Part shown: positions 38,302-57,210 of the stretch, piece by piece | Layout of the letters: each line of letters starts with the position of its first letter | Position numbering within the stretch: position 1 is the first letter of the stretch | DNA from: Candidatus Omnitrophota bacterium | GTDB lineage: Bacteria; Omnitrophota; Gorgyraeia; JAHJTE01 | NCBI GenBank assembly: GCA_040753675.1 | Contig: JBFMEB010000002.1 | Coordinates: forward strand, 41,888-105,887 | DNA length: 64,000 bases | Direction of reading: 5' to 3' | Translations under genes and position numbers: made by a program | The notes under the pieces: model-generated | What the model was told of the DNA's origin: nothing | Database searches by the model: none | What the model saw: only the letters and a program-made list of their open reading frames with translations

Positions 38302-38478
38302 CTACTTATTTGTCCTTACCTTGACAAACTCCTCTAAATCCTCTGGCTTAATCCTCCACTTCTTCATTTTAGTAGCTCTTAGTTGTTTGTTCTGGATAAG
38401 GTCACGAATCCAATCCTCGGTAACATCCAGTCTTTTAGCCACTTCTTTGACAGTAAGATATTTGGTAAGGTCAACCAT
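38302..38478 (-). CDS. excisionase/AlpA-type helix-turn-helix protein (58 aa)
   Basis: Hand-translated MVDLTKYLTVKEVAKRLDVTEDWIRDLIQNKQLRATKMKKWRIKPEDLEEFVKVRTNK. Typical Xis-family HTH. Below the track cutoff. Confidence 0.5.
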   Translation of the reverse strand: MVDLTKYLTVKEVAKRLDVTEDWIRDLIQNKQLRATKMKKWRIKPEDLEEFVKVRTNK

Positions 38479-38584
38479 AGTTTAGACTCCTAATAAATGC
38501 AGGGAAATATACGATTTGGTAACTTCCTATTGCTTACTATTGTATATCTTTAAGGTTGGAATGTCAAATAAACAAATCGTCTCT

Positions 38585-39343
38585 TTACCACCTCTTACAC
38601 AATTCCCTATACCCACATATCCCGCAGAAGTAATTTTCATCCGGGTAGAATATCCCAGTCTTTATCGCTTTAGAGACATAAGCGAGGATTTTAAGGAAGC
38701 GGTCTAAGTCTTGCTGTGTGCGCTGGGTAGTTAGTTGCTGGACTTTAGGCTTTTTGGTTCTGACCATTACATCAAAGCGAAGGGCCTTTTCTTTTAGGCC
38801 TAAGGCATGGCGGTAGGCAAGGGAATAGCAGGTAATCTGAAGGTCTGTGTTGATATTTTCTTCCGGCATAGAGCGCTTGGTAGTTTTATGGTCAATGATA
38901 ATGTCTTGGTTATCTACAAGATCAAGCTTTCCTTTTAAGGTATAGTCAACGTTCTGGAAGGAGAGGTCAAAGTCTTTCTCTACAACTTTGGGCTGAATAG
39001 TAGGTGAGATTTGGTTGTGGTAAGTAGTAATAAGGCCAACTCCTTCGTCTTTGACTTGGCCGGGCTTTTCGCCTTCTTCAAAGACCGTTTCCTTTACCTC
39101 GGATTCCCACAGATCCGAGAATAAGTCAGTTACCTGTTTAACCGGAAGGTCCTGTTTTGTCTTTATCTTTTGGGAATAGTTTATCTCTAAGGCGGAGTGG
39201 ATAGAACGTCCTAAGGTAATAGCACTAACAGGTGGTATCTTTAGTCCGTCAACATAGCGGAACTTATACTGCAAGGGACAGCGAAGATACATTTTAATCT
39301 GAGTTATAGATAAGTGATTGTTATTCATCTTTTTTACCTCCAT
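38585..39343 (-). CDS. PD-(D/E)XK nuclease, Cas4/RecB-like with Fe-S cysteines (phage-type)
   Basis: N-terminal Cys (YLRCPLQY) plus C-terminal CGICGYRELC, as in the Cas4/DUF83 family. Confidence 0.65.
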   Translation of the reverse strand: MEVKKMNNNHLSITQIKMYLRCPLQYKFRYVDGLKIPPVSAITLGRSIHSALEINYSQKIKTKQDLPVKQVTDLFSDLWESEVKETVFEEGEKPGQVKDEGVGLITTYHNQISPTIQPKVVEKDFDLSFQNVDYTLKGKLDLVDNQDIIIDHKTTKRSMPEENINTDLQITCYSLAYRHALGLKEKALRFDVMVRTKKPKVQQLTTQRTQQDLDRFLKILAYVSKAIKTGIFYPDENYFCGICGYRELCKRW

Positions 39344-39421
39344 CTTAATATGTCAATAAAGGGTCATTTTGTGACAGAAAAAGTAGGGCGGGCCCTCGAA
39401 TGAGAACCCGCCCCTTTCAAA

Positions 39422-39835
39422 CTAAACTGCCACTGCCATCAACTCATCGATTTTCTCAGATGCCTCCTGCATCGTGAGATTGTTTAGCCCCTCGATGAAT
39501 TGGCCTCTTTCTTTGGCAAGCCGGATAATAAGCGACTTCTGCTTGCCTGTTGCAGGAGCGTCAGGGTCCTTAAGCTGAGGCTTGCCGTTGCCGTTCTTTT
39601 CCCTTCGACTTTGCTCATGGCGAGTCGGCTGAGGCACCGTAACTTCCTCCTTAGGCGGAAACTCCAAAGGATCAGCGTCAGGATTAAGCTGGCGCTGAAT
39701 GGCGGCCTTTGCCAAAGCGAAGAGCTCATCAACGACTGTGTCAGCTTTATCTTTCGGCACGTCGCCGACTGTTTCAAAAGTGACTGAATAGGTATCACCG
39801 TTATTTTTGTAACCGTAATTCGCTAAGATTCTCAT
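39422..39835 (-). CDS. hypothetical phage protein
   Basis: ORF only. Acidic/Pro-rich centre. Confidence 0.35.
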   Translation of the reverse strand: MRILANYGYKNNGDTYSVTFETVGDVPKDKADTVVDELFALAKAAIQRQLNPDADPLEFPPKEEVTVPQPTRHEQSRREKNGNGKPQLKDPDAPATGKQKSLIIRLAKERGQFIEGLNNLTMQEASEKIDELMAVAV

Positions 39836-39852
39836 GGCATTTACCTCCTGTT

Positions 39853-40080
39853 TTAGAATCCCTTGTACCAGGATTCATTTTTAACGTTATCGCCTTGTCT
39901 GTGTGAACTGATAGGCTTAATTGTGCCAAGGCATTTTTTACACATAAGCCCATACTCCGTAGAAAAGCAATCCTCAACTGCAATGCCATCCTCATCAACG
40001 AGGAATTTATCGCAGTAATCACATACGCGAGGATCGCCTTCCTGAAGCGTTACTTTAATGATGAAAGGGTTATCATCCAT
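39853..40080 (-). CDS. small zinc-ribbon protein
   Basis: CDYC ... CKKC pairs. Confidence 0.3.
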   Translation of the reverse strand: MDDNPFIIKVTLQEGDPRVCDYCDKFLVDEDGIAVEDCFSTEYGLMCKKCLGTIKPISSHRQGDNVKNESWYKGF

Positions 40081-40095
40081 AGACTAATCACCTCT

Positions 40096-40383
40096 TCAAA
40101 GTTCGATTGCCTTGAGGTGGGCAACCGTCCATTTCTCTTTTTCTTCCAAGTTCTTTCCCCAGCCCATACGCAGAGCCTCTTGGTGGGTGGGGATATCGGT
40201 AAGCTCAATGAAAGAGTTAGACTTTACATAGTCAATGTGCTTACAGTGACGATAGTAAAGCCAGCCCTTGCAGTTACAGGAGAGCTCACCGGTAGAAAGC
40301 TTCCGTTTCACGAAATAAACATCACCTCCTTTTTTGGACTTGAATTTCGCTAAGGTCTCATATTTAAGGGCCATCTTCATCAC
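40096..40383 (-). CDS. SWIM zinc-finger protein
   Basis: CxCx(n)CxH pattern SCNCKGWLYYRHCKH. Confidence 0.45.
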   Translation of the reverse strand: MMKMALKYETLAKFKSKKGGDVYFVKRKLSTGELSCNCKGWLYYRHCKHIDYVKSNSFIELTDIPTHQEALRMGWGKNLEEKEKWTVAHLKAIEL

Positions 40384-40850
40384 CTCCCCTCATGAATGAC
40401 TGAGACCTCTAAACCTGCTTTCTGGGCAGCCTCAAAGGTAAATTTAGTACCCCTGGACTTACCGTCCCAGATGGCAAAGCACTCTTTTGATAAGCCGACC
40501 ATATAGAGATTGCGGGCAAGATAGGTAGAAGATAGCCTGATAACTTTACCGACTTTATCTAAAGCAAACTCATTACGGCACCTGCCGTGAGCGCCGACAA
40601 CAGTAACATGCTTGCCATAGCCGCGCCTAATTGCCTCGGCGACAACAAGGCGGTCAACACCGGGAGCATCGCCAACGACAATCTCAACGCCCCTATTGAT
40701 GAGCGTGTCAATGAGGAGCGATATATTTTCAGAGTGCGTAATGCTACGAGAGCCTGTAATAACCACATACTGCTTACTCATCGTTATCACCTCCCATAGT
40801 CTGGCCTTCGCCGTCTCTCTCGAAACCACAGTGCTCACACCAGGAGCCAT
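40380..40850 (-). CDS. SLOG/DUF2493-like Rossmann-fold protein (DprA/LOG superfamily)
   Basis: VVITGSRS...GDAPGVD...VTVVGAHG pattern typical of phage SLOG proteins. Confidence 0.45.
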   Translation of the reverse strand: MAPGVSTVVSRETAKARLWEVITMSKQYVVITGSRSITHSENISLLIDTLINRGVEIVVGDAPGVDRLVVAEAIRRGYGKHVTVVGAHGRCRNEFALDKVGKVIRLSSTYLARNLYMVGLSKECFAIWDGKSRGTKFTFEAAQKAGLEVSVIHEGR

Positions 40851-40902
40851 AACCTGGCATAATGTGGTAATCTGAACTATTGCAGACAGGACAACGCAAC
40901 AT

Positions 40903-41295
40903 CTAAATCACCTCCTCTAAGACATCACTGTGTCCCTGGACAAACTCCTCAAGAGACTCCCAAGCCTGAGGGACAAAGCCAGCTGAGATAAGCCGATGGA
41001 CATCCCTCATAAGACGACGCTCTTCTCTGACAGCAGAGGAACCAAAGGAATACGAAGGTAAATCCTCAAAAGAAGTGCGATACTGAGAATCGCGAGATGT
41101 AGAATATCTTTCCATACACGCATCCACACGCAACATGCCATCCTCAAACTTTCTTTCCTTTGCCGAACTATAAATATTTTTTTGCCGCATGGCGAACCTC
41201 CTTTCTTTTTTCGCCAAAAAAATAAGCCCAAGTATTTGACCCCGAAGGGTTACGCCACGATAGTGGCGTAATACCGAGCCTTTGAGGCAAACCAC
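40903..41295 (-). CDS. hypothetical protein
   Basis: ORF only. Confidence 0.35.
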   Translation of the reverse strand: MVCLKGSVLRHYRGVTLRGQILGLIFLAKKERRFAMRQKNIYSSAKERKFEDGMLRVDACMERYSTSRDSQYRTSFEDLPSYSFGSSAVREERRLMRDVHRLISAGFVPQAWESLEEFVQGHSDVLEEVI

Positions 41296-42124
41296 AAAGG
41301 CGAGGTAGAGATGAATTTTTCTAAAAAATTTTCTTGCACAAAAGTCAAATCTTGGGCATCTCTTAAAGCGAAAAAGAAAGGACGGTGAGGCAGAGGCAAA
41401 AAAGATACCTCAATCCGGTGAGGCAAAGGAAAGGACTAAAGAAGGATGGCGATGGATGCAGGATGAAGGAAAGCCGTTTTGGGGTCTGGGGCATTTTTCA
41501 AAAATGCCCCAGTGGGAGTTCAGAGGGCAAAGCCCTCTGACAGGCAGGCACTCTGCCGAAGACCGCCCTTACCTACTAAAAACTTGTATTTTTAAGGTGG
41601 TGAAATTCAGGTGGGGCGGGCTGAGGCAGAGGTGGACACGAGCGAGGCACAAAAAAGAGACACAAACTTTTCTCCCCTGTTGTTAAGGAACTCTCGGGAG
41701 AAAAGTTTTAGGGTTCGCCTGCTTGTCTTAAAGGCGAACGCTAAAAGTGTCTCTTAGCGAAAGCAAATCTTGCGAGTGAAACGAGCAAGTTTTGCGAAGC
41801 GATTTTTGTGCCGAGTGAGTGGACACGGCTGGCTTCGGCGTCGTTAGATACAGGTGATTTGAGGGATGGTGAGCTTGGTGAGGCGAAAACACCGAAGGTG
41901 GTTGAGCCCCGAGCACGCCAACCCGAAATGAGGAAAGCAGGCTAAGCCGAAGCCAGCCTGCCTGAAGTATATTGTTTATCTTCTATGTATAAATATACAA
42001 CAAAAAATTATCAGGATAAAAAATAGTAGTACTATTAGTGTCGAGAGGATATTCTTCACTTCCCTTTCAGCCTGTCTTTATAACTTTAACTAAGTTACTT
42101 AAACAACTATGCAAGTTAAAAAAG

Positions 42125-42577
42125 TTAGTGGAGTTTCAATTTCTTTACTGGTTCAATCTTTTCTTCAAGTTCCGTGCCACACTTAGGACATTTGCCTGGT
42201 TTTATATCAGAGATTTTACACATTGGGCATTCGTAGCGGACATCCTTCTCAATCAAATCGGATTTACACATCGGACATTTTCCCGGTTTATTCTGTGAGT
42301 AATCGCAAGTTGAACAGGAATATGTGTGGGCAACCTTTACCTTTTTTAGTTCCGTCTTGCAAGTTGGACAAATACCCGGCTTATCTTGTTCATATCCGCA
42401 ATTAGGGCACTGATAAACTTCCTTTATGCTCACCTTTGATTCTACCTCAGTGTCCTTTGTAACACCATTAGCTTCCTGTGCTTGTGCTTTAGGTATACAT
42501 CCTCCGCAGGCAAAAGATTTATACTGAGGACTAAATACTACCAAACCTCCTATTATTAAAATAAACAGCAACTTCAT
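42125..42577 (-). CDS. periplasmic protein with three tandem heavy-metal-binding (HMBD-like, YxCPxC..KPGxCPxC) repeats
   Basis: Signal peptide. Repeats YQCPNCGYEQDKPGICPTC, YSCSTCDYSQNKPGKCPMC, YECPMCKISDIKPGKCPKCG. Confidence 0.55.
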   Translation of the reverse strand: MKLLFILIIGGLVVFSPQYKSFACGGCIPKAQAQEANGVTKDTEVESKVSIKEVYQCPNCGYEQDKPGICPTCKTELKKVKVAHTYSCSTCDYSQNKPGKCPMCKSDLIEKDVRYECPMCKISDIKPGKCPKCGTELEEKIEPVKKLKLH

Positions 42578-42698
42578 AACTTATTCACCTCCTTTTCGAT
42601 TTCTCTTTTATCTCCCGCGCAAGAAAGAAGAAACAGCAGAAAATTATTATTGCAAAAAGCGATGCTCCCATGAAAATTAAAATGGACATTTTCATAAT

Positions 42699-42893
42699 TT
42701 AAGCTCTACATTCTCCACGCATAGATTTGTGAAAACACTCTAAACACTTAGGACACAACCCATCGCTACAGTTCCAATCGGGATGTTTCTTCTTAATCTC
42801 ATCGATAATGTGAAGCTCGGCATGATGAATATATTTTACTAAGTCTCTTTCAACCTTTTGGTTGCAGGTTGAGCAGATGTAGTATTCCGGCAT
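42699..42893 (-). CDS. small Cys-rich (zinc-ribbon-like) protein
   Basis: CSTC...CSDGLCPKCLEC pattern. Confidence 0.3.
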   Translation of the reverse strand: MPEYYICSTCNQKVERDLVKYIHHAELHIIDEIKKKHPDWNCSDGLCPKCLECFHKSMRGECRA

Positions 42894-42905
42894 TTTCTAT
42901 TTCCC

Positions 42906-44321
42906 CTATTCCACGCAACAGCTCATTCTTTTAGGATCATGTTTAAAGGATTGAGCAACAATTTTTATCGCTTCCGAAAAAGCGGGAAAGATATGCACGG
43001 TATCAATAATCTCATCTATGGTGAGACCAAATTTTACGGCTAAAGTTGCCTCATGAATTATCTCTGAGGCAAGGCTGGAAACTATATGCACACCCAAAAT
43101 TTTCTTTGTCTCATGGTCAAGCACCATAAAGATAAGACCTCTTGTATCTTTTATTGCTTTCGCCTTAGGAATTCTGTCCATCTTAACCGTTGAACATAAG
43201 CAGGTGCCGAATTTAACCATATAATCAGATTCTTTTATCCCCACACTGGCAACCTGTGGAGAGGTAAAGACAGCATAAGGGATACTATTAAAATCCATCT
43301 TAATCTTTGAATCTTTAAGCGCATTCTGCGTGGCAATATTTCCTTCTTTGGCAGCTACGGTCTCAAGCCACGGCGCTCCAATTATATCTCCTGCGGCATA
43401 AATATGAGGTTTTGCTGTCTGTAGGTAATCATTTACCTTAACAAATCCATTTTTATCCACTTCAATTGCGGTATTTTCTAATCCCAATTCTTGACTGTTT
43501 CCCATAACGCCCGTAGCTAATAAAATTTCTTCTGTTTCAATATTCTCAATATTCCCCTCCTTTTCAATCTGCACAATCTTTTTCTTATCCTTGCGAACGT
43601 TTTTTGTTTTTGCGCCGGTAATTATCCTTATTCCTTCATCCTCAAGAGACTTTCTTAATTCCTCAGAAACTACTGGCTCTGATTGGGGTAGAATGCGCTC
43701 CATTAACTCCACAATCGTAACTCGACTGCCTAATCTAGAAAAAATCTGTCCAAATTCCAAACCAATAGGGCCTGCCCCAATTACAATCAGGCTTTCGGGC
43801 AAACTCTTCAGTTCCAAGGCGGTGCGATTTGTTAAAAATCCAACCTCTTTTAACCCTTCGATGGGGATAATCTTCGTAGATGAACCGGTAGCGATGATAA
43901 ACTTAGAAGCAGAGAATTTATCGCCGTTTATTTCTATTTCATTTTGGGATATGAAATGTGCCTTACCTTCTTTAAAAGTTACTTTAGGTAGATTTTTAAG
44001 TACATCTTCGTAGTTAGATTTTCTTAAGGAATCGACCAAGATATTTTTCTCTTCAATAAGTTTAGTAAAATCGATCTTAGCAGAGGAAACTAAAGAATCA
44101 AAACGACTGTGATTTGCGTTATGATAATCACTTGCTACTTCTAATAAAAACTTTGTGGGCACACAGCCGACATTTACACATGTACCACCCATAGGCAAAC
44201 CTGAATTTACCATTAAGGTCTTGGCCCCTAATTCATCTGCCTTAATTGCTGCAGCAAAACCCGCAGCGCCACCACCAATAATGATTAAATCAAATTTATT
44301 ATCTGAAATAGAACAGCACAT
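42906..44321 (-). CDS. merA: mercuric reductase-like class I pyridine nucleotide-disulfide oxidoreductase
   Basis: Redox-active GGTCVNVGCVPTK, FAD/NAD Rossmann motifs, and a C-terminal vicinal Cys pair (...RMSCCVE) characteristic of MerA. No NmerA domain. Confidence 0.65.
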   Translation of the reverse strand: MCCSISDNKFDLIIIGGGAAGFAAAIKADELGAKTLMVNSGLPMGGTCVNVGCVPTKFLLEVASDYHNANHSRFDSLVSSAKIDFTKLIEEKNILVDSLRKSNYEDVLKNLPKVTFKEGKAHFISQNEIEINGDKFSASKFIIATGSSTKIIPIEGLKEVGFLTNRTALELKSLPESLIVIGAGPIGLEFGQIFSRLGSRVTIVELMERILPQSEPVVSEELRKSLEDEGIRIITGAKTKNVRKDKKKIVQIEKEGNIENIETEEILLATGVMGNSQELGLENTAIEVDKNGFVKVNDYLQTAKPHIYAAGDIIGAPWLETVAAKEGNIATQNALKDSKIKMDFNSIPYAVFTSPQVASVGIKESDYMVKFGTCLCSTVKMDRIPKAKAIKDTRGLIFMVLDHETKKILGVHIVSSLASEIIHEATLAVKFGLTIDEIIDTVHIFPAFSEAIKIVAQSFKHDPKRMSCCVE

Positions 44322-44340
44322 TTGCTTTCCTCCTTGCTTT

Positions 44341-44898: not shown

Positions 44899-44902
44899 TC
44901 TT

Positions 44903-45490: not shown

Positions 45491-45556
45491 AGAATACCTC
45501 CAACCCGCAGGAGGAAAGGAAACACCCTTAAAATGCTCCTATCCTCCTTCTAGAAT

Positions 45557-45805: not shown

Positions 45806-45810
45806 CTCCT

Positions 45811-46805: not shown

Positions 46806-46808
46806 AGA

Positions 46809-50510: not shown

Positions 50511-50512
50511 TT

Positions 50513-50833: not shown

Positions 50834-50931
50834 TTGTGTTTGTGTGTTTTAAATATAAATATAAAGCGAAAATCTTGAGATACCTCCAAAACCCTCCCAC
50901 CCATCGCATACTTTTTAAAAAACTATCCCAC

Positions 50932-51270: not shown

Positions 51271-51896
51271 CTTGCCACCTCCTCGCCAAATTCCTGCCTT
51301 ATAACTTCGCCTATAAGAACCGGCTCTTTTAGGCGCTCTTTAAAATTGGATTTTCTGTTTTTAAAGAATTGAGATTGAGAAAAATTCCCCTTTTCTTTAA
51401 TACTTTCTTTATATATATTTCTTTCTTTATTTTGTGTGGTGTCCTGCAAGACACCTTTTAAGGTGTCTTGGGGGACACCACCTGGTGTCTTACAGGACAC
51501 CTCTGGGGTGTCTCTCAAGACACCACCTTTTAAAGTTATCCACAACTTCCACTGTGGATATCTCTTATTTAAGCCAAGGATGTTTTTGGTTCTATTTTTC
51601 TCTTTGACAAGCACTCGGTCGTTGATTAACTGCTCTACTACCTTTTTGACATAGCGCTTGTTTAAGCCGGTTAGATAAGAGATAACTCCGTAACTTATCT
51701 CTGATTTTTTCTTACGCCAGCCATAGGTCTTTCTCATAACGACCAAGAGCACTTTAATCTGGGCAGCAGTGAAAGGATAAGCGATAATTGCCTCTAAAAG
51801 CTCATTGGCAATTCGCGTATGACCTTTCTCAAGCTGGGGGCTACCTATTCTCAAAGTCAAACTCCTTCTGATACCTGATGCCAAATTTATCCTCAA
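51267..51896 (-). CDS. phage replisome-organizer/replication initiator (lambda O-like N-terminal HTH)
   Basis: N-terminal HTH region (VISYLTGLNKRYVKKVVEQLINDRVL). Gene body contains four ori-type iterons. Confidence 0.55.
   Translation of the reverse strand: MRINLASGIRRSLTLRIGSPQLEKGHTRIANELLEAIIAYPFTAAQIKVLLVVMRKTYGWRKKKSEISYGVISYLTGLNKRYVKKVVEQLINDRVLVKEKNRTKNILGLNKRYPQWKLWITLKGGVLRDTPEVSCKTPGGVPQDTLKGVLQDTTQNKERNIYKESIKEKGNFSQSQFFKNRKSNFKERLKEPVLIGEVIRQEFGEEVAR
51438..51524. repeat. four iterons GGTGTC-N6-GACACC (putative phage origin)
   Basis: 18-bp units at 51438, 51462, 51484 and 51507, spacing 22-24 bp. Each unit has perfect 6-bp inverted arms. Confidence 0.7.
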
Positions 51897-52197
51897 CTGC
51901 CTTGCTTAATCTCTTGGCCCTGTTGGCCACTTCTTTTACTCTTGACCAGTACTGCCTTAGACATTGGAGCGCTTCATCTTTATCTGTGATAAGGTAGAAG
52001 CCGTAAGGGTAATTGACTGATGAGGCAATGGGTATCTCGTGGTAAATGACAAGATTTGCTACTGCTTTTCTAATCTTACGCGATGAGGCTAGGGTCATCC
52101 TTTCTAACTCCTGAACTGTAATAGGATTATCCTTACCCTTATGGCACTCAAGAATATGAAGAATTGTCTGCTCTAAACTGTTCATCTTAGGAGGCAT
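51841..52197 (-). CDS. hypothetical phage protein
   Basis: ORF only. Confidence 0.3.
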   Translation of the reverse strand: MPPKMNSLEQTILHILECHKGKDNPITVQELERMTLASSRKIRKAVANLVIYHEIPIASSVNYPYGFYLITDKDEALQCLRQYWSRVKEVANRAKRLSKAVEDKFGIRYQKEFDFENR

Positions 52198-52822
52198 TTT
52201 GTAAGTAACCTTTCAAGATATCGATGAATTTTGAGGCTTGGGATTTAGTTAAATCAGCTGATGAGATAACTCCGAAGTTCTTCTCTAAGATTTCCATATA
52301 GTCCTCATCAGTTAGGTTAAGCCTCAGGCTAAGCATATGGATGTATTTGCTCTGTGAAGGAGTTATCTTTTCTTCATCTGATTTTGGCTTAGGAATTACC
52401 GGCTCTTCTGTATTTGGTTGTCTTGAAAGCGCGTCTTTTACTTCCTCTGCTGTTGCTATACCTCCACCTAAAAGACCAATCCCAAAGAAACCTAAACATC
52501 TGCCGTAGGCGGAGGTCTCAGCATTCTCATAGGGGTTGGATTTATCAACTGTAGTCTGACCATAGGCACCGGCAGAGGCTTCGGCTACTCCGAAGATTTC
52601 TGAGAAAACCTTGACGTAGCAAATGATGTTTCCTTCCGGGTCTTTTTCAAATCTTCTTGAGAATTTGAATTTCTTATTCTGTTCTTTATGTATATCAGTA
52701 AATTCCTTGACTCTGCCGTCGACCATCATATATTCGTTGGTTACGGTCTTATAACTTCCGTCTTCTTGTTTTTGTTTATGGGTTAGCTTCTGGATGAACT
52801 TGGAGTAGTCTTTCTTTTCCAT
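52187..52822 (-). CDS. possible phage single-strand annealing protein (Erf/Rad52-like)
   Basis: Weak resemblance (…AYGRCLGFFGIG…). Position beside the replication module. Confidence 0.3.
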   Translation of the reverse strand: MEKKDYSKFIQKLTHKQKQEDGSYKTVTNEYMMVDGRVKEFTDIHKEQNKKFKFSRRFEKDPEGNIICYVKVFSEIFGVAEASAGAYGQTTVDKSNPYENAETSAYGRCLGFFGIGLLGGGIATAEEVKDALSRQPNTEEPVIPKPKSDEEKITPSQSKYIHMLSLRLNLTDEDYMEILEKNFGVISSADLTKSQASKFIDILKGYLQNAS

Positions 52823-52833
52823 TGGGGGCCTCC

Positions 52834-53160
52834 TTATTTTGATTTTGTTGTCCCTGGTTTAAAATTTATGGTCCTCAGTAAACCTTCTATTGCCGGATGA
52901 GGATGAAGATTTTTCTTGTCATCTTTTAGGTCAAAGATAATCCCTGCGCCGAGGATAGTTTCTAACCTGTCCATTGACTTGTAGTAGATATCCTCAATGG
53001 AGTTGGCTATCTCCCAGATGAGTTTATTATCGGCTTTCCGGGTCAGGAATATCCCGCCTAAGCATAATGCGATGTCTTTAAAAGTGTCATTGACTAGTTC
53101 ATAGATTTGGTATTCTTTTGAGCTACGCATCTTGTCACCTCCGCTTTTTGTTGCTCTCAC
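52834..53160 (-). CDS. hypothetical protein
   Basis: ORF only. Confidence 0.3.
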   Translation of the reverse strand: MRATKSGGDKMRSSKEYQIYELVNDTFKDIALCLGGIFLTRKADNKLIWEIANSIEDIYYKSMDRLETILGAGIIFDLKDDKKNLHPHPAIEGLLRTINFKPGTTKSK

Positions 53161-53202
53161 CCTTAATATGTCAATCTTGGGGCAAATTGTGACAAAGAAT
53201 TT

Positions 53203-53955
53203 TTAAAATTTTTCCTTGCCAAGATATGTTCGTATGGCTTTTTGTGCCCTTGCTTTCTTTTGGCGGATTGCTGCATAAGATAGACCCTTTAGTTCTTGGG
53301 ATACATCTTTCATGGACCTGCCATAGACCTTGGTAGCCAGAAGGATATATTTATCAGTTTCAGAGATAACGCCTAATTTGACTAAATTATCAAGTAAAGA
53401 AATAATCTCTTGAGGGTCAACTTTAGCCGGTATAGAGGGAATGCATTCTGGATGTATCGCCAATTCCTGCTCAGAGCCGAGTTCTTTAAAAAGGGCTGTA
53501 AAATAATCCCTTAACTTGTTACGCAGCCTGCCTAAGACTTTTGAGGCGAGCTTTGTTTTGTCTTTGTTTAAGTCAATCTGGCTTAATTCTTCAAAGAATA
53601 AGGTTACAATCTGACACCAAAGGTCCAATTCTCCATACGAAGCAAATTGTTTTGCCCTTGATTTAAATTGAAAGAATATCTTGAGCAAACCGGGCCTAAA
53701 AAGAATTAGTAAATATGAACCGACTGACTTAGATTCCTCTTGGGACTGATATTCCAAGATAAGGCTTGATAGGATTTCATCGTTGAGTTTGAAGTTAGGA
53801 TTTCTCTGGTTATGCAGGCAATCTATAAGATCCTGTGGTGTAGGATAGGATTTAATTGAGACGTGTTTTTCTCTGATTGTTTCGTAGAGTGCGATAAATT
53901 TTTCTGATGAGATTTCATTTTCTACTTCCCTTAGAAGCTTTCTGATAGACTCCAT
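53203..53955 (-). CDS. HTH protein with sigma-70 region-4-like C-terminus (possible phage sigma/regulator)
   Basis: C-terminal LKGLSYAAIRQKKARAQKAIRTYL. Confidence 0.35.
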   Translation of the reverse strand: MESIRKLLREVENEISSEKFIALYETIREKHVSIKSYPTPQDLIDCLHNQRNPNFKLNDEILSSLILEYQSQEESKSVGSYLLILFRPGLLKIFFQFKSRAKQFASYGELDLWCQIVTLFFEELSQIDLNKDKTKLASKVLGRLRNKLRDYFTALFKELGSEQELAIHPECIPSIPAKVDPQEIISLLDNLVKLGVISETDKYILLATKVYGRSMKDVSQELKGLSYAAIRQKKARAQKAIRTYLGKEKF

Positions 53956-54037
53956 AGTTCTCCTCGCCTAGAAAGCCCGCCTGTGGCGGACAGGCAGGGT
54001 CTCGGAGAACCTCGGAGCTTTCTTTTTTAGTTAGTTT

Positions 54038-54265
54038 TTAGAATTTGGTTATGGTTTTACATTTTTTGCATTTGATAGATACTAAGTATCTAGTTTGACG
54101 TTCTGCTATCACATCCTTTCTGTGTTCATTTGCGTCAGAAATAATTTTTCTGGTAGTCTCTGCTAATTTTCTATTACATTTCGGGCAGCGGATTTCATAC
54201 ATTGGTAAATCTCTATAAAAAGAAAAAGCCCAACCCCAGGCTATTACCTGAAATTGGGCCTTCAA
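54038..54265 (-). CDS. zinc-ribbon (Com-like) small protein
   Basis: CPKCNRKL...CKKCKT. Confidence 0.4.
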   Translation of the reverse strand: MKAQFQVIAWGWAFSFYRDLPMYEIRCPKCNRKLAETTRKIISDANEHRKDVIAERQTRYLVSIKCKKCKTITKF

Positions 54266-54301
54266 ACCTAAATAATTGGCTATGGACCTATAAAGACTTT
54301 A

Positions 54302-54448
54302 TTATTTCATAATCTCAACTTTATGTTCGCGCTTACAGCGCTTGCATTTAACATAGATTTCTTTGCCTTTTATAGTAAATAAATACCGGTTACAATCGCA
54401 ACGGACCTCTTTAGTATCAGTGCTTTTGTCTTTAACTAGTACCTTCAT
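54302..54448 (-). CDS. zinc-ribbon small protein (48 aa), paralogous in style to 54038-54265
   Basis: Hand-translated MKVLVKDKSTDTKEVRCDCNRYLFTIKGKEIYVKCKRCKREHKVEIMK. Confidence 0.3.
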   Translation of the reverse strand: MKVLVKDKSTDTKEVRCDCNRYLFTIKGKEIYVKCKRCKREHKVEIMK

Positions 54449-54553
54449 AGCAAAATCCTCCTTTCAGCGTGAATATCTTCCAATGGGATTTTGCCAGGGA
54501 GGGGTAGCGTTTCCCGGGAATTCGGGAAGGGCTGGTTCATCTAGCAAGTCAGG

Positions 54554-55168
54554 TTAATATTTTCTGTAGACTCCGATTACTTTGCCAAGGATGCTTATTG
54601 TAGCGTCTTCGGGATGAAAGGCAAAAGGCGGTATTGCAGGGTTTTCCGCCTTTAGGGTTATAGTATCATCATTTTTATAAAAACGCTTTACAGTTGCCTC
54701 ATCATTTATTAAGGCAACCACAATTTCGCCATTTTCTGCTATTGGCTGTTGTTTGACAATTACAAAGTCACCGTTATAGATACCAGCGTTTATCATACTA
54801 TCACCCTGAACTTTTAAGGCAAAAATATTCTCTCCTTTAGCCCAAGTTTTATCTATGGCGACATAGCCTTCGATATTCTCAACAGCTAAGATAGGACTTC
54901 CTGCTGCAACTCTACCTAAAACCGGAACCTCCACTATATCACGTAAGGTCTTTCTAATTCCTGTAAGAAAAATGGCTCGCGCTTTATCTCTTTCTCTCTT
55001 TATATATCCCTTTTTTTCTAAAACAGCCAGGTAATCCTGGGCCGTGCCGAGAGCTTTAAACCCAAAGTGGGCCATTATTTCACGCAGTGTAGGCGTGGAA
55101 TTATTCTTCAGCCAACAGTCTTTAATGAAGTTTAGAATTTGCTTCTGTTTCCTGGTTAGGTCCTGCAT
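54554..55168 (-). CDS. LexA-family (S24 peptidase) repressor, prophage CI-like
   Basis: LexA DNA-binding domain (LTRKQKQILNFIKD..PTLREI...LEKKGYI), Ala-Gly cleavage site (VAAGSP), and Ser/Lys S24 domain. Start set at MQDLTRKQ with GGAGG RBS. The track ORF extends further. Confidence 0.8.
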   Translation of the reverse strand: MQDLTRKQKQILNFIKDCWLKNNSTPTLREIMAHFGFKALGTAQDYLAVLEKKGYIKRERDKARAIFLTGIRKTLRDIVEVPVLGRVAAGSPILAVENIEGYVAIDKTWAKGENIFALKVQGDSMINAGIYNGDFVIVKQQPIAENGEIVVALINDEATVKRFYKNDDTITLKAENPAIPPFAFHPEDATISILGKVIGVYRKY

Positions 55169-55297
55169 TAGAATCTGCCTCCTTCCAGCAAAAGTAATAT
55201 ACCATACATTTGTCTGGGATGTCAAGAAAAAAAATTTCACCCCCTCTGTCACAATTCCCATGTTTCTTGACATACTGTATATGAGGAAGGTAAATCA

Positions 55298-55504
55298 ATG
55301 GAAACCGGGAAAATAGCAAACAAAAAGGGTAGGCCAAGGGGCTCTAAAAAAGAATTCCGTATTACATACGAAATAGTGCCTCCTGGCACTATAAAAAGCG
55401 ACCTACCCATACCTCAGAAAACTCCCGACGAACGTTGGGAAGAAATAGTCGAAATTTGTTCTGCCATTATAGCCGAAGCTTATCAGAAAAAAGATTTTAA
55501 TTGA
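55298..55504 (+). CDS. small hypothetical protein divergent from repressor (Cro/Xis position)
   Basis: 68 aa, basic N-terminus. Confidence 0.35.
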   Translation: METGKIANKKGRPRGSKKEFRITYEIVPPGTIKSDLPIPQKTPDERWEEIVEICSAIIAEAYQKKDFN

Positions 55505-55560
55505 CATTTAGATACGTTCGGTTTACCATATGGTATCGTATATAACAATTAGGGAATTAG

Positions 55561-57210
55561 ATGAGCATAAAAAAGTGCGCACTATACATAAGGGTCTCTA
55601 CCTCACGACAGGCAAGTGTTGAAGATGGTTCTTTAAAGGCTCAGGAAGCCAGATTAAAAGCCTATGTAGATTATGAAAATACCAATAAAGGCGGCGACTG
55701 GGAAATAGCCGATATATATCGTGAGGAAGGGCGCTCAGCCAAAGATCTAAAACGACCTGAGTTTCAACGGCTTTTAGTAGATATAGAAGCCGGTAAAATA
55801 AACACCATTGTAATCTGGAAGATAGACCGCCTTACCAGATCCCTAAAGGACTTCTCCACCCTCTGGGAATTATTCAAAGAAAAAGGAATCCAGCTTATCT
55901 CCCTCAATGAAAAATTTGATACGAGCACAGCCCTGGGAAGGGCAATGATTAGCATTATCCTTGTTTTCGCCCAGCTTGAGCGAGAACAAACCGGAGAAAG
56001 AACTGCTGCAACAATGCAATACAGGGCGGAAAAGGGACTCTGGAATGGCGGTAGGATAATCGGCTATGACCTCGACCCAAACAATAAGGGCTCCCTTAAA
56101 ATAAATCGTGAGCAAATGGCAATAGTAAAAAAGGCCTTTGACCTTTGTATAGAAAAGGGTTCAGCAGGACAAGTGCAAAGAACACTTAACGACCTCGGCT
56201 ATAGAATGCCTACCTATAAATCAAGGCGCGGCAAAGAGCACGGCAACAACCTCTTTACCAAGCAGGCAGTTATAAGAATGCTTACTAACTCTGTTTATGT
56301 TGGTAAAATAAACTGGGGTGGTAAACTTTATCAAGGAAAACACCAAGGAACAATAGATGAAAAGAAATTTTTGAAGATACAGGAAATACTACGACAAAAT
56401 AGAAAGAGAAAGACTAATGATAAGTTACCACGGCAACACGTATATCTCTTGCAAGGCATTCTCCGCTGTGGAAAATGCGGTTCAATGATGACACCAAAAG
56501 GTGGCATAAACGGTTCCGGACACCCATACCACTATTATCAATGTACAAAAAATAGCCATATAGGGAATATTGCCTGCAAAGCTAAATACGTCCCGGCAAA
56601 ATCAATCGAGAATTTTGTCGTAGAAAGAGTAAAAGAGCTGACTACAAACGAAGAAGAAATTGCAAAGATGGTAAAAAATGCTAATAAATATAGTGATACA
56701 CAATTAAAGAAATTAATTGAAGATAAACAGAGCTTACAGAAGGCTATCCACCAAGTAAAAGAGAAACTTAACGCAATGGTCGACACTATAGAGAACGAAG
56801 GCGCTAAAGCTTTTAAGACTTTGCAAGAAAGAATGGCTGCATTGGAAAAACAGCGTGAAGAGTTAGAAAAGAAACTTGAGGTAATAGACTTTGAGGCTAC
56901 AAAAATCGAGCAGGAAAGAGTCAGTGCAGAAATAATGCAGGAGCACTTTAAATCCTTTAGGGATGTCGTTAAAAAGGCTGATGCTCAAAAACTAAAAGAG
57001 CTTCTTTTTCAAATCATAGAAATCATACAATGGCATGAAAATCCTGATGATAGCTCCTCAGGACACTGCAAGATTAGTTATTTCGAACAACCCCGCTTAA
57101 TTATTCCCCAAAATAAACTGAGCGAACAAGGTGGTAACCTACTGTTCGCTCAGAGTGACAACTGGCTCCCCCGCGAGGACTCGAACCTCGGACATGGTGG
57201 TTACACTTAA
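55561..57210 (+). CDS. large serine recombinase (integrase)
   Basis: Resolvase catalytic N-terminus (ALYIRVSTSRQ), recombinase domain, zinc ribbon (CGKCGS...C), coiled coil. The last ~20 codons are antisense to tRNA exon 2, so the true C-terminus is uncertain. Confidence 0.85.
   Translation: MSIKKCALYIRVSTSRQASVEDGSLKAQEARLKAYVDYENTNKGGDWEIADIYREEGRSAKDLKRPEFQRLLVDIEAGKINTIVIWKIDRLTRSLKDFSTLWELFKEKGIQLISLNEKFDTSTALGRAMISIILVFAQLEREQTGERTAATMQYRAEKGLWNGGRIIGYDLDPNNKGSLKINREQMAIVKKAFDLCIEKGSAGQVQRTLNDLGYRMPTYKSRRGKEHGNNLFTKQAVIRMLTNSVYVGKINWGGKLYQGKHQGTIDEKKFLKIQEILRQNRKRKTNDKLPRQHVYLLQGILRCGKCGSMMTPKGGINGSGHPYHYYQCTKNSHIGNIACKAKYVPAKSIENFVVERVKELTTNEEEIAKMVKNANKYSDTQLKKLIEDKQSLQKAIHQVKEKLNAMVDTIENEGAKAFKTLQERMAALEKQREELEKKLEVIDFEATKIEQERVSAEIMQEHFKSFRDVVKKADAQKLKELLFQIIEIIQWHENPDDSSSGHCKISYFEQPRLIIPQNKLSEQGGNLLFAQSDNWLPREDSNLGHGGYT
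57098..57142 (-). terminator. terminator downstream of tRNA-Asn
   Basis: Minus strand CTGAGCGAACA-N14-TGTTCGCTCAG followed by TTTATTTTGGGG. Confidence 0.5.

What the first reader, a model, noticed from the sequence alone, without database searches (positions are those of the whole stretch)
38302..57210. Prophage-like integrative element next to tRNA-Asn with large serine recombinase, LexA-type repressor and cargo modules
Minus-strand phage-like genes include excisionase-like HTH, Cas4-like nuclease, SWIM, SLOG, Hjc-like resolvase, a replisome organizer with iterons, a possible SSAP and Com-like zinc ribbons. These are combined with a LexA/CI-type repressor divergent from a small gene, and a 549-aa serine recombinase whose 3' end runs antisense into tRNA exon 2. 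No capsid, terminase or tail genes are present. The element is therefore a satellite, a degraded prophage or a recombinase-mobilised island, not a complete phage.
Basis: partly seen in the sequence, partly recalled or inferred. Interest (0 to 1): 0.55.

Follow-up and report, generated by a model that had tools for sequence, protein, structure and literature searches.

The report
Island that splits its own recombinase
A phage-like mobile island without virion genes sits in the tRNA-Asn gene of a Candidatus Omnitrophota genome, and it was inserted by a large serine recombinase whose own gene is cut in two by the insertion, a design shared by relatives in many bacterial phyla.

Summary
Region 38302-57210 carries phage-type regulation, replication and recombination genes, a LexA-type repressor and a large serine recombinase (LSR) whose last 16 codons run antisense through exon 2 of tRNA-Asn(GUU). 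That tRNA is split by a group I intron. No virion, packaging or lysis genes are detectable.

- The overlap with the tRNA is a family trait. In at least 33 of 80 related genome loci, from at least 8 phyla, the LSR stop lies 39-41 nt inside an opposed tRNA-Asn.
- The attachment site lies inside the LSR gene. The 549-aa ORF is only the 5' part. The missing 138 codons (a ParB-type HTH domain) lie at 27428-27844, in frame behind a second copy of the 9-bp core TGGCTCCCC and an inverted copy of the arm motif. Joining the halves in silico gives a 676-aa protein. It aligns end to end with intact 691-aa homologues.
- The unit bounded by att sites is therefore 27419-57171 (29.75 kb), not 18.9 kb. It also holds an IS-type transposase and a host-like pst-pho regulon. 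The mer operon is cargo absent from the one related element that spans this position.

Verdict: a recombinase-mobilised, phage-like island. It is a new variant of a known kind.

The parts
27419..27450 (+). attL. It consists of the 9-bp core TGGCTCCCC (27419-27427), a 6-bp spacer, and the P' arm CACTCCGAGCGAACA (27434-27448). To its left lies a host intrinsic terminator that would follow tRNA-Asn after excision.
   Evidence: Core plus P' is the only such combination in the window besides attR, and none was found in 39 other loci. The P' arm is an inverted copy of the P arm (15/18 in the register, 14/18 in that).
27428..27844 (+). The 3' part of the LSR gene (138 codons, a ParB-type HTH domain). 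It is in frame with the core and was separated from the rest of the gene by integration.
   Evidence: PF17762 HTH_ParB 2e-10. It is 37% identical over 129 aa (E 3e-23) to the C-terminal extension of the intact homologue P0007. The in-silico fusion aligns with P0007 over 669 aa.
27908..28975 (+). IS3/IS481-type DDE (rve) transposase.
   Evidence: Pfam rve_3 and HTH_32; NCBIfam IS3 and IS481, both below their cut-offs.
29322..38225 (-). A host-like pst-pho regulon inside the att-bounded unit: phoU, pstB, pstA, pstC, pstS, a porin, two response regulators, phoR/pnpS and phoB.
   Evidence: Pfam (phoB itself, 37539-38225, was read from its translation and from its 46% match to a response regulator in L042). 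The same cluster order occurs in the Omnitrophota relatives L102 and L103 without LSR genes. Its tetranucleotide profile matches the host flanks (r 0.89-0.91).
38302..39376 (-). An operon of the PD-(D/E)XK/Cas4-like nuclease (38585-39343) and the HTH_17 excisionase-like protein (38302-38478). It is preceded by motif copy 1 (39349-39376).
   Evidence: HTH_17 homologues (60% identity) sit near the LSR in L082 and L027.
39422..41645 (-). Backbone small genes: a 137-aa ORF, a 75-aa ORF, a 95-aa ORF with a SWIM-like motif, SLOG/DprA-like (40380-40850) and a 130-aa ORF. A conserved promoter-like non-coding stretch lies at 41298-41645.
   Evidence: The region is collinear with L095, L096 and L099 at 75-92% DNA identity.
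42125..46107 (-). Mercury-resistance cargo: an HMBD protein, a 64-aa ORF, MerA, a dual-specificity phosphatase, a MerT-MerP fusion, a thioredoxin-like protein and a CsoR-type regulator.
   Evidence: MerA scores 542 bits on TIGR02053 against a cut-off of 454. Pfam. The operon is absent from the related element L096, where about 1.5 kb of other DNA takes its place.
46213..50510 (-). A conserved accessory block: zf-HC2, a DUF5698 membrane protein, a Poly_export-like lipoprotein, YdjM, an AAA_16 ATPase, a 222-aa ORF, a 93-aa ORF and a PLD-family nuclease.
   Evidence: Pfam. PADLOC gives only generic DrmC-like and ATPase hits and no known system. DUF5698, zf-HC2, YdjM and the AAA protein have counterparts in L096.
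50513..53194 (-). Replication and recombination module: a Holliday-junction resolvase, a 112-aa zinc protein, RepO (51267-51896) with iterons at 51462-51528, a 118-aa ORF (phrog_2113), a 211-aa possible SSAP and a 108-aa ORF. It is preceded by motif copy 2 (53167-53194).
   Evidence: It is 69-89% identical at the protein level to L096.
53203..55273 (-). Regulatory module: a 250-aa protein with weak similarity to sigma-70 region 4, a Com-like zinc ribbon, and the LexA-type S24 repressor (its likely true start is at 55168).
   Evidence: The module is collinear with L005, where the 250-aa protein is 62% and LexA 72% identical.
55247..55504 (+). Motif copy 3 (55247-55274) and a 68-aa ORF that is conserved upstream of the LSR in relatives. 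The ORF is a candidate directionality factor or partner of the LSR.
55561..57210 (+). The 5' part of the LSR gene as it reads in the integrated state. Codons 1-537 belong to the element. Codons 538-549 and the stop are read antisense from tRNA-Asn exon 2 and the intron end.
57110..57171 (.). The element side of attR. On the minus strand there is a hairpin (57153-57118) and a T-run (57117-57110), which form the replacement terminator for tRNA-Asn. The P arm TGTTCGCTCAGAGTG (57143-57157) doubles as one stem of that hairpin. A spacer ACAAC follows, then the core TGGCTCCCC (57163-57171).
57163..57513 (-). tRNA-Asn(GUU): exon 1 at 57513-57479, a group I intron at 57478-57204, and exon 2 at 57203-57163 including the encoded CCA.

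Best explanation
This is an integrated, non-virion, phage-like genomic island of a Candidatus Omnitrophota bacterium. It was inserted into the 3' end of tRNA-Asn by its own large serine recombinase.

Excised form (inferred): the circular element carries an intact LSR gene of about 676 codons. attP lies inside that gene, at codons 535-537 (TGG CTC CCC). Two 15-bp inverted arm motifs flank it, 5-6 bp from the core.

Integration: attB is the last 9 nt of the tRNA-Asn gene (GGGGAGCCA, with the CCA encoded) plus its flanks. Crossover within the 9-bp identity has four effects.
- The tRNA sequence is left intact.
- The tRNA's own terminator is replaced by an element hairpin and T-run, which lie antisense inside the LSR coding region.
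- The LSR gene is cut. The 5' 537 codons stay at attR and gain 12 codons and a stop read antisense from the tRNA.
- The 3' 138 codons, encoding a ParB-type HTH domain, end up at attL, 29.7 kb away.

Maintenance and induction (inferred): a LexA-type S24 repressor, divergent from the 68-aa-ORF/LSR operon, holds the element silent. Three transcription units share the motif TGTCACAA-N12-TTGACATA: the 68-aa ORF with the LSR, the replication module, and the nuclease with HTH_17. They are probably switched on together, for example after RecA-stimulated cleavage of the repressor. Excision would then restore the full-length LSR, and RepO would fire at its iterons.

Transfer: the element has no virion or conjugation genes, so movement between cells must rely on a helper or another route (unknown).

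Cargo: a mer operon absent from the one related element that spans this position, a conserved YdjM/AAA/PLD block, and a host-like pst-pho regulon.

Shown by sequence: the att architecture, the split gene, the family-wide link to tRNA-Asn, and the conserved backbone with variable cargo. Inferred: the regulation, the identity of the directionality factor, current mobility, and the role of the HTH domain.
For: 1. Split gene.
- ORF 27428-27844 is in frame behind a second TGGCTCCCC.
- The fusion of LSR residues 1-537 with this ORF aligns over 669 aa (60.5% identity) with the 691-aa homologue P0007. It also aligns with P0026, P0059 and P0077.
- The C-terminal piece alone matches P0007's extension at E 3e-23.

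2. att sites.
- The core is invariant in the loci examined.
- The P' arm at attL is an inverted copy of the P arm. Core plus P' was found only once in the window and in none of 39 other loci.
- Loci L012, L020, L073 and L078 carry a contiguous P-core-P' site with no tRNA.
- L070 (long form) and L072 (tRNA form) are 91% identical up to the core and unrelated after it.

3. tRNA-Asn specificity.
- In 33 of 80 genome loci, from at least 8 phyla, the LSR stop lies 39-41 nt inside an opposed tRNA-Asn(GTT).
- Eight more loci have tRNA-Asn at other offsets, and 8 loci in all, the window included, have intron-split copies.
- The C-terminal residues W, L, P, S and N are nearly invariant.

4. Synteny. 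Removing 27428-57162 places tRNA-Asn plus a terminator about 1.1 kb from the Memo/AMMECR1 gene. L001 has the same neighbourhood.

5. Backbone. The window is collinear with L005 from 53.3 to 57.2 kb, and with L095, L096 and L099 from 38.5 to 52.6 kb. The cargo between differs.

6. Regulatory motif. It occurs exactly 3 times in 64 kb (0.05 expected), all inside the element, and is conserved at the same positions in L005, L095, L096 and L099.

7. Gene content. Phage families are hit for regulation, replication and recombination. None is hit for virion parts.
Against: - The pst-pho segment (29.3-38.2 kb) looks like native chromosome. It has the same gene order in relatives without LSR genes and a host-like composition. 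The att-bounded unit may therefore owe part of its content to a later rearrangement or to a MAG misassembly, not to cargo capture.
- No attL was found within 10 kb of the LSR in any other integrated locus. The window is thus the only complete integrated example.
- tRNA-Asn is inverted relative to dnaX-recR compared with other Omnitrophota. Extra tRNA-end fragments lie at 27.2-27.4 kb and at 59.0 kb. Both point to an unresolved history of rearrangement.
- No junction reads, circular form or empty site of this exact element were available.
- Whether the truncated LSR is active is unknown.
Confidence: 0.78

Rival explanations
1. The mobile element proper is only the phage-like backbone, 38.3-57.2 kb. 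On this reading, the IS and the pst-pho regulon are host DNA placed between the backbone and attL after integration, for example by an IS-mediated event or an inversion. The present 29.75-kb unit would then be an accident of rearrangement.
For: - The pst-pho cluster has a conserved chromosomal order in Omnitrophota relatives that lack LSR genes.
- Its composition matches the host flanks (r 0.89-0.91). The backbone correlates at only 0.62-0.79.
- An IS-type transposase lies at the junction.
- The regulatory motif is absent from 27-38 kb.
- Local synteny around tRNA-Asn is visibly rearranged.
Against: - No att core or P'-like sequence lies at the phoB/HTH_17 junction.
- Only one IS copy is present.
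- Related LSR elements also carry large blocks of host-like genes next to the LSR (L001, L003, L082).
- Nutrient-acquisition cargo is reported for tRNA-integrating tycheposons (my recollection, prompted by the 'cargo-carrying tycheposons' passage of doi 10.1101/2020.12.28.424599).
- Either way, excision between the mapped att sites would now take the regulon along.
Confidence: 0.4
2. It is a degraded prophage. On this reading, a once complete temperate phage lost its virion, packaging and lysis genes, and what remains is an immobile relic.
For: - There is a phage-type repressor/integrase switch, a RepO with iterons, a resolvase and an exonuclease.
- The LSR gene is interrupted and an IS is present.
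- tRNA-end fragments nearby suggest decay.
Against: - All backbone genes are intact ORFs.
- The related elements L096 (10.8 kb of backbone), L104-L106 (18-22 kb contigs with an intact LSR), L001 and L082 show no virion genes either.
- The LSR interruption is the designed consequence of attP lying inside the gene. It is not decay.
- No close relatives were found among 2.9 million viral contigs.
Confidence: 0.12
3. It is a phage satellite (PICI-like). On this reading, the element stays integrated until a helper phage infects, then excises, replicates from its RepO origin and is packaged in the helper's capsids.
For: - The layout is integrase, repressor, divergent regulators, replication module and accessory genes, with no virion genes.
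- The Com-like and sigma-like regulators could sense or redirect a helper.
Against: - No small terminase, capsid-remodelling or other packaging-redirection gene was recognised.
- At 18.9 or 29.75 kb it exceeds typical satellites.
- The repressor is an SOS-type LexA, not a helper-sensing Stl-like protein.
- No helper is known for Omnitrophota.
Confidence: 0.2
4. It is a MAG assembly artefact. On this reading, the contig joins strain variants or the integrated and excised forms at repeated att or IS sequences, so the apparent structure is chimeric.
For: - The window comes from a metagenome-assembled genome. Identical proteins are named 'MAG: Candidatus Omnitrophota bacterium' on a 110,862-bp contig.
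- att cores and IS copies are classic points of misjoining.
Against: - The only repeat shared by the two ends is 9 bp, too short to mislead an assembler.
- The attL and attR structure is exactly reciprocal and keeps the reading frame.
- After removal of the element, synteny matches L001.
Confidence: 0.07

Closest known systems
Phage and island large serine integrases (phiC31, Bxb1, A118, CcrAB, XisF)
   Same: - The same three-domain enzyme: Resolvase, Recombinase and zinc ribbon. The best NCBIfam matches are CcrB and XisF, both below their cut-offs.
- Short att sites with a small core and imperfect inverted arms.
- No long direct repeat is produced.
- A small partner gene lies beside the integrase.
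   Different: - The target is a tRNA gene end. [quoted passage not shown]
- attP lies inside the integrase ORF, so integration truncates the enzyme and removes a C-terminal ParB-type HTH domain.
- I know of no described LSR with either property. That rests on my own knowledge and on searches of a limited library.
SSV1-type archaeal integrases, whose gene is partitioned on integration
   Same: - attP lies within the integrase ORF.
- Integration into a tRNA gene splits the integrase gene into two parts at the two ends of the provirus.
- Excision restores the gene.
   Different: Those are tyrosine recombinases of archaeal viruses. Here the enzyme is a bacterial serine recombinase, and only a C-terminal accessory domain is removed. 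All catalytic and DNA-binding domains of the LSR stay together. The resemblance rests on established knowledge of SSV1, not on a test made here.
Mycobacteriophage integration-dependent immunity
   Same: attP lies inside a regulatory gene's 3' end, so integration changes the C-terminus of the product. In some cases a few residues are added from bacterial sequence next to a tRNA (PMC8092301).
   Different: There the gene cut is the repressor and the integrase is a tyrosine recombinase. Here the integrase gene itself is cut.
Tycheposons and related cryptic elements of Prochlorococcus
   Same: - They are tRNA-integrating elements with a site-specific integrase.
- They have their own replication genes and cargo modules, and they lack virion genes or are PICI-like.
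- 27 of 937 carry a large serine recombinase instead of a tyrosine one (doi 10.1101/2020.12.28.424599).
   Different: - The host phylum differs.
- The replication module here is RepO with iterons, not a primase/helicase.
- Homology of the LSRs was not tested.
- No split integrase is described for them in the text read.
tRNA-gene genomic islands as defined by Islander
   Same: The island lies between an intact tRNA gene and a displaced 3' fragment followed by the old terminator, and the element restores the gene.
   Different: - The displaced fragment is only 9 nt.
- The integrase is of the serine family, which Islander excludes by design (PMC4383910).
- The tRNA carries a group I intron, so standard tRNA finders miss it.

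Membership tests
Large serine recombinase (serine integrase) | An N-terminal resolvase catalytic domain with the serine nucleophile. | tested here: met
   PF00239 8.5e-38, residues 7-160. R11, S13 and the other active-site positions are invariant in a 32-sequence alignment.
Large serine recombinase (serine integrase) | A Recombinase domain and a zinc-ribbon domain following the catalytic domain. | tested here: met
   PF07508 1.3e-16 and PF13408 6e-15. The phrog_95 integrase match is 2.3e-121 over residues 3-497.
Large serine recombinase (serine integrase) | Short att sites with a small common core, imperfect inverted arms and no long direct repeat. | tested here: met
   A 9-bp core and 15-bp inverted arms 5-6 bp from it. 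No direct repeat of 12 nt or more was found in 38 loci.
Large serine recombinase (serine integrase) | Demonstrated attP x attB recombination. | not testable with these tools
   This needs an assay. The indirect evidence is that closely related genes in the attP form (L070) and the attR form (L072) diverge exactly at the core.
Complete temperate prophage | Virion structural and packaging genes: capsid, portal, terminase and tail. | tested here: not met
   No Pfam or PHROG hit to any such family among the ORFs scanned in 27.4-57.2 kb. No unannotated ORF exceeds 250 aa.
Complete temperate prophage | A lysogeny switch (repressor plus integrase) and a replication module. | tested here: met
   A LexA-type repressor, the divergent 68-aa ORF with the LSR, and RepO with iterons.
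Phage satellite (PICI-like) | Genes that hijack a helper's packaging: a small terminase, capsid-size redirection or similar. | tested here: inconclusive
   None was recognised by Pfam or PHROGs. Several small ORFs have no annotation.
Phage satellite (PICI-like) | Induction and packaging that depend on a helper phage. | not testable with these tools
   No culture and no known helper.
tRNA-integrated genomic island (Islander definition) | An intact tRNA gene at one end and a displaced tRNA fragment at the other. | tested here: met
   tRNA-Asn lies at 57163-57513. The displaced 9 nt GGGGAGCCA plus the old terminator lie at 27419-27427 and leftward.
tRNA-integrated genomic island (Islander definition) | A tyrosine-family integrase. 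| tested here: not met
   The integrase is of the serine family. No PF00589 protein was found in the element.
Split-integrase elements (SSV1 type) | attP inside the integrase ORF, so that integration partitions the gene. | tested here: met
Split-integrase elements (SSV1 type) | A tyrosine recombinase of an archaeal virus. | tested here: not met
   A serine recombinase in a bacterial host, Candidatus Omnitrophota.
LexA repressor | A LexA DNA-binding domain plus an S24 peptidase with the Ala-Gly cleavage site and the Ser/Lys dyad. | tested here: met
   TIGR00498 equivalog, 216 bits against a cut-off of 111. PF01726 and PF00717. VAAG, GDSM and VKRF are read directly in the translation.
Group I intron in a tRNA anticodon loop | A match to RF00028 above the gathering score, flanked by exons that splice to a canonical tRNA. 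| tested here: met
   79.8 bits against a gathering score of 50. The spliced exons give tRNA-Asn(GTT). The 5' exon ends in U and the intron ends in G.

The most novel reading that the evidence does not exclude
The cut through the recombinase gene may be a built-in state switch. On this reading, the full-length enzyme with its ParB-type HTH domain exists only on the excised circle and drives or regulates integration. The truncated enzyme, made from the integrated copy, would have different activity, stability or directionality. It ends in a tRNA-antisense tail and faces convergent tRNA transcription. If so, a serine integrase senses its own integration state without a separate factor. The family would also be the first well-defined lineage of serine integrases dedicated to a tRNA gene. 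It is spread over at least eight bacterial phyla, and its conserved 9-bp core would be useful as a portable landing site.
Probability: 0.3. Interest if true: 0.85.

Novelty: new variant of a known kind. Interest (0 to 1): 0.64.

Why it matters
Serine integrases are the workhorses of genome engineering. They are generally thought to insert into protein-coding or intergenic sites, while tRNA genes are the preserve of tyrosine integrases (PMC4383910, 2014).

- This family of serine integrases targets the invariant 3' end of tRNA-Asn in many phyla.
- It keeps its attachment site inside its own gene.
- That offers a natural example of self-sensing integration, so far described for archaeal tyrosine integrases and for mycobacteriophage repressors.
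- The att sites are predictable from sequence: the core TGGCTCCCC plus arm motifs.
- It also explains why such islands are missed. The displaced tRNA fragment is only 9 nt, the integrase is of the 'wrong' family for island finders, and in several hosts a group I intron hides the tRNA.
- For Omnitrophota, the element is a candidate vehicle for mercury resistance and possibly for phosphate-uptake genes.

Tried and rejected
- ARAGORN on the window found no tRNA. The group I intron explains this.
- Long direct repeats of the tRNA 3' half were sought in the window and in 38 loci. None was found. I dropped the idea of a tyrosine-style duplication.
- The phoB/HTH_17 junction (38226-38301) was tested as attL. 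It has no core and no arm-like sequence beyond background. Rejected.
- An inverted pair at 27354-27373 and 28966-28985 was considered as the IS ends. It is 16/20 complementary, which is about what chance gives. Not used.
- The palindrome TACCATATGGTA at the LSR promoter was tested as a repeated operator. It is not enriched.
- Exact-sequence look-ups of window proteins failed.
- The HEAT-protein scan of reference genomes found nothing. Its distant homologues sit next to guaB-guaA and gave no usable empty site.
- Viral-contig scans with the LSR, nuclease, RepO and the 250-aa protein found no close relatives.
- PADLOC found no known defence system in the YdjM/AAA/PLD block.
- Rfam found nothing credible in the ORF-free stretch 41.3-42.1 kb. 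Part of it is a conserved promoter-like region.
- SSAP and SWIM assignments could not be confirmed.
- A single inversion that would explain both the host-like pst-pho segment and the reversed tRNA orientation could not be constructed.
- The L003 arrangement (GIY-YIG ORF and repeated tRNA-like fragments) was left unresolved.

Full report
**1. Checking the observation**

Pfam, PHROG and NCBIfam searches confirm these genes:
- an HTH_17 excisionase-like protein (38302-38478);
- a PD-(D/E)XK/Cas4-like nuclease (38585-39343);
- a SLOG/DprA-like protein (40380-40850);
- a Holliday-junction resolvase (50513-50833);
- a lambda-O-type replication initiator (51267-51896), with three 22-bp iterons inside the gene at 51462-51528;
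- a weak Com-like zinc ribbon (54038-54265);
- a bona fide LexA-type repressor (54554-55273; TIGR00498 at 216 bits against a cut-off of 111; the Ala-Gly site and the Ser/Lys dyad are readable);
- a divergent 68-aa ORF (55298-55504);
- a large serine recombinase, LSR (55561-57210).

No HMM supports the SWIM and SSAP labels.

The cargo includes a true MerA (TIGR02053 at 542 bits against a cut-off of 454). With it come a MerT-MerP fusion, a CsoR-type regulator, a thioredoxin-like protein and a heavy-metal-binding protein.

No capsid, portal, terminase, tail or lysis family is hit. No unannotated ORF is longer than 250 aa.

**2. The tRNA**

ARAGORN reports no tRNA anywhere in the window. Rfam finds a group I intron at 57211-57440 on the minus strand (79.8 bits). 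Reading the flanks gives exon 1 at 57513-57479 and exon 2 at 57203-57163, with the CCA encoded. The 5' exon ends in U and the intron ends in G. Joined in silico, the exons fold as a canonical tRNA-Asn(GTT). The intron sits between anticodon positions 35 and 36.

The LSR ORF crosses all 41 nt of exon 2 on the other strand and stops 7 nt into the intron.

**3. The overlap with the tRNA is a family property**

A protein search with the LSR returned hundreds of homologues. Most are about 547 aa and cover the query fully. Their C-termini nearly all read WLPxxDSNxxPxG. W, L, P, S and N are almost invariant in a 32-sequence alignment. This is the antisense translation of a tRNA 3' half: TGG is the complement of CCA, and DSN is the complement of the T-loop.

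A scan of one genome per species returned 80 loci. They come from Omnitrophota, Desulfobacterota, Planctomycetota, Hydrogenedentota, Nitrospirota, Geobacter, Thermodesulfobacteria, KSB1, Latescibacterota and others.
- In 33 loci the LSR stop lies 39-41 nt inside an opposed tRNA-Asn(GTT). The stop codon TAA is the complement of anticodon-loop bases U35-U36-A37.
- Eight more loci have tRNA-Asn at other offsets.
- A few use tRNA-Gln, Arg, Glu, Met or Asp.
- In seven loci besides the window the adjacent tRNA-Asn is intron-split like the window's.

The closest genome locus is L005, Candidatus Omnitrophota isolate AUK026, with an LSR 84% identical. Proteins identical to the window's are labelled 'MAG: Candidatus Omnitrophota bacterium' on a 110,862-bp contig.

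**4. Finding the other end**

No direct repeat of 12 nt or more of the tRNA 3' half occurs elsewhere in the window or in 38 loci. The phoB/HTH_17 junction at 38.2-38.3 kb shows nothing resembling the right end.

The 9-mer TGGCTCCCC is the complement of the last 9 nt of tRNA-Asn. It is invariant directly after the LSR tail in the loci examined. That includes loci where no tRNA follows: L012, L020, L054 and L078, with near-copies in L073 and L034. In L020, L012, L078 and L073 the 9-mer is followed by an inverted copy of the motif that precedes it. This is a contiguous attP: P arm, core, P' arm.

In the window the same structure is split.
- At 57143-57171 lie the P arm TGTTCGCTCAGAGTG, the spacer ACAAC and the core.
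- At 27419-27448 lie the core, the spacer GTGCAA and CACTCCGAGCGAACA, the inverted P arm.

A search for a core (at most 1 mismatch) followed within 2-12 nt by the inverted arm found this one site in the window. It had 0 and 4 mismatches. The same search found nothing comparable in 39 other loci. I estimate the chance probability below 1e-3.

Left of the 27419 core lies an intrinsic terminator. Excision would therefore rebuild tRNA-Asn followed by a terminator.

**5. The recombinase gene is split**

The ORF called at 27428-27844 is 138 aa and matches HTH_ParB at 2e-10. It starts in frame directly after the attL core. Joining LSR residues 1-537 to it gives a 676-aa protein.
- It aligns in one piece with the 691-aa homologue P0007 (60.5% identity over 669 aa).
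- It also aligns with P0026, P0059 and the distant 710-aa P0077.
- The C-terminal piece alone matches P0007's extension at 37% identity, E 3e-23.

In P0007's contigs (18-22 kb, seen in several samples) the LSR gene is intact and no tRNA adjoins it.

In one MAG bin, L070 carries the long form and L072 the tRNA-Asn form. The two are 91% identical up to the core (11642-11650) and unrelated beyond it.

So attP lies inside the LSR ORF. Integration leaves a 549-aa enzyme with all canonical LSR domains and a tail encoded by the tRNA's opposite strand. The ParB-type HTH domain is sent to the far end of the element.

The P arm also forms one stem of a hairpin (57153-57118, minus strand) followed by a T-run. 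This hairpin replaces the tRNA's displaced terminator and is encoded antisense within the LSR tail. The residues SEQ...FAQS that encode the hairpin are conserved in the closer homologues.

**6. Extent and composition of the element**

The att-bounded unit is 27419-57171, 29.75 kb. It has three parts.

(a) A phage-like backbone, 38.3-57.2 kb.
- It is collinear with L005 from 53.3 to 57.2 kb. There the 250-aa protein is 62% identical and LexA 72%, and the small ORF and the LSR follow.
- It is collinear with the metagenome contigs L095, L096 and L099 from 38.5 to 52.6 kb.
- In L096 the mer operon is absent, and the YdjM/AAA/PLD block is replaced by diverged counterparts. The backbone is thus conserved and the cargo variable.

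(b) The motif TGTCACAA-N12-TTGACATA.
- It occurs exactly three times in 64 kb, against 0.05 expected.
- Each copy lies directly upstream of a transcription unit: the nuclease with HTH_17, the replication module, and the 68-aa ORF with the LSR.
- It is conserved at the same places in L005, L095, L096 and L099.
- This ties the two ends of the backbone into one regulatory unit.

(c) A 10.9-kb left arm.
- It holds the LSR 3' fragment, an IS3/IS481-type transposase and a complete pst-pho regulon.
- That regulon has the same gene order in Omnitrophota relatives without LSR genes.
- Its tetranucleotide profile matches the host flanks (r 0.89-0.91). The backbone correlates at only 0.62-0.79.

I cannot tell whether the regulon was captured as cargo or was placed there by a later rearrangement. 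As the DNA now stands, excision would carry it.

**7. Context and unresolved history**

In other Omnitrophota loci tRNA-Asn lies beside recR-dnaX. In L001 the radical-SAM, spermine-synthase-like and Memo/AMMECR1 genes lie between, exactly the window's genes at 19-26 kb. Removing the element puts the window's tRNA-Asn about 1.1 kb from Memo, which fits. Its orientation, however, is reversed.

Further short fragments resembling the tRNA end lie at 27215-27232, 27365-27381 and 59044-59083. They suggest earlier events at this site. I could not reconstruct those events.

**8. How it most likely works**

Shown by sequence:
- the att architecture;
- the split gene;
- restoration of the tRNA and replacement of its terminator;
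- the conserved backbone and shared motif;
- the absence of virion and conjugation genes.

Inferred:
- The LexA-type repressor keeps the three motif-bearing units off until it is cleaved.
- The LSR, perhaps with the 68-aa ORF or HTH_17 as directionality factor, then excises the element and regains its full length.
- RepO replicates the circle from its iterons.
- Spread between cells needs a helper or another route.
- Convergent transcription of the tRNA into the LSR 3' end may also dampen LSR expression in the integrated state.

**9. Comparison with what is known**

The enzyme is a member of the large serine recombinases, and every domain test is met. The element fails the test for a complete prophage (no virion genes). 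It fails one test of the Islander island definition (no tyrosine integrase).

It works like the SSV1-type archaeal proviruses, whose integrase gene is partitioned by integration. It also works like mycobacteriophage integration-dependent immunity, where attP lies in the repressor gene (PMC8092301). Both of those use tyrosine recombinases.

[quoted passage not shown] The tycheposon study reports 27 of 937 tRNA-associated elements with a large serine recombinase (doi 10.1101/2020.12.28.424599). LSRs at tRNA sites are therefore rare but not unheard of.

My literature searches found no description of a serine integrase with attP inside its own ORF. The library is incomplete, so priority remains to be checked.

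**10. Verdict**

The element is a recombinase-mobilised, phage-like island and not a complete phage.

The interesting part lies in the recombinase. It belongs to a widespread tRNA-Asn-specific family, and its gene is cut by its own integration.
- Novelty: a new variant of a known kind.
- Interest: 0.64.
- Confidence: 0.78 in the main explanation, and about 0.6 that the pst-pho regulon is genuine cargo and not a later rearrangement or an artefact.

Noticed in passing
window 57204-57478 (-); also L001, L024, L025, L033, L035, L037, L043: tRNA-Asn(GUU) is interrupted by a group I intron between anticodon positions 35 and 36 in the window and in seven related loci (Omnitrophota and Planctomycetota MAGs). 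ARAGORN misses all of them. A library search found no report of a bacterial tRNA-Asn group I intron.
   Followed up: partly
window 27215-27232, 27365-27381, 59044-59083: Short fragments resemble the 3' end of tRNA-Asn, in both orientations, and two are followed by terminators. The fragment at 27215-27232 (TGGCTCCACCGCGAGGTC) matches 16 of 18 bases of the tRNA side of attR. They may be relics of earlier integrations or inversions.
   Followed up: partly
L070 and L072 (contigs of one MAG bin, SRP323723_co1_89): The same bin holds a long-form LSR with intact attP and a 91%-identical LSR joined to tRNA-Asn. Similarity stops exactly at the 9-bp core.
   Followed up: yes
window 19173-26313 compared with L001 12677-19960: The block dnaX-recR-radical SAM-spermine synthase-like-Memo/AMMECR1 is syntenic with L001. 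In the window, however, tRNA-Asn is inverted relative to this block. In the distant relatives L085 and L087-L090 the HEAT-repeat gene on the tRNA's other side follows guaB (L085) or guaB-guaA (L087-L090) directly.
   Followed up: partly
L003 11600-12350: A complete tRNA-Asn with its own terminator is followed by a GIY-YIG ORF. Next comes a partial tRNA-like copy (D-arm, a hairpin resembling the intron's first hairpin, and the 3' half) abutting the LSR. Two more copies of that fragment lie upstream.
   Followed up: no
window 27908-28975; L023 11790-12875: Homologous rve-type transposases (43% identity) sit directly beyond the LSR att core in two unrelated elements. In L023 the tRNA is missing. 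The IS may prefer this site.
   Followed up: no
window 41298-41645 (-): An ORF-free, G+C-richer stretch is conserved at up to 92% identity in L096 and L099, more than the neighbouring genes. It looks like a promoter region with hairpins upstream of the 130-aa ORF. Rfam finds nothing credible in it.
   Followed up: partly
window 55501-55535 and L005 2325-2360: The LSR has its own promoter-like site (TTGACA-17-TACCAT) that overlaps a perfect 12-bp palindrome, TACCATATGGTA. The site is conserved in L005. The palindrome is not repeated elsewhere in the window.
   Followed up: partly
window 26575-27147 (-) and 59162-59855 (+): A zeta-toxin-like P-loop kinase lies just outside attL. A Gp49/HigB-like toxin with an HTH antitoxin lies about 1.6 kb beyond the tRNA. 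Both are outside the att-bounded unit.
   Followed up: no
L104-L106 (contigs carrying P0007): The element with the intact long-form LSR carries defence-type cargo: an E2-CBASS-like protein, a ThiF/E1-like protein, a PIN-MazE pair and a 787-aa AAA_13 protein. No virion genes are recognisable. The contigs of 18-22 kb recur in several samples and may be the free circular form.
   Followed up: no
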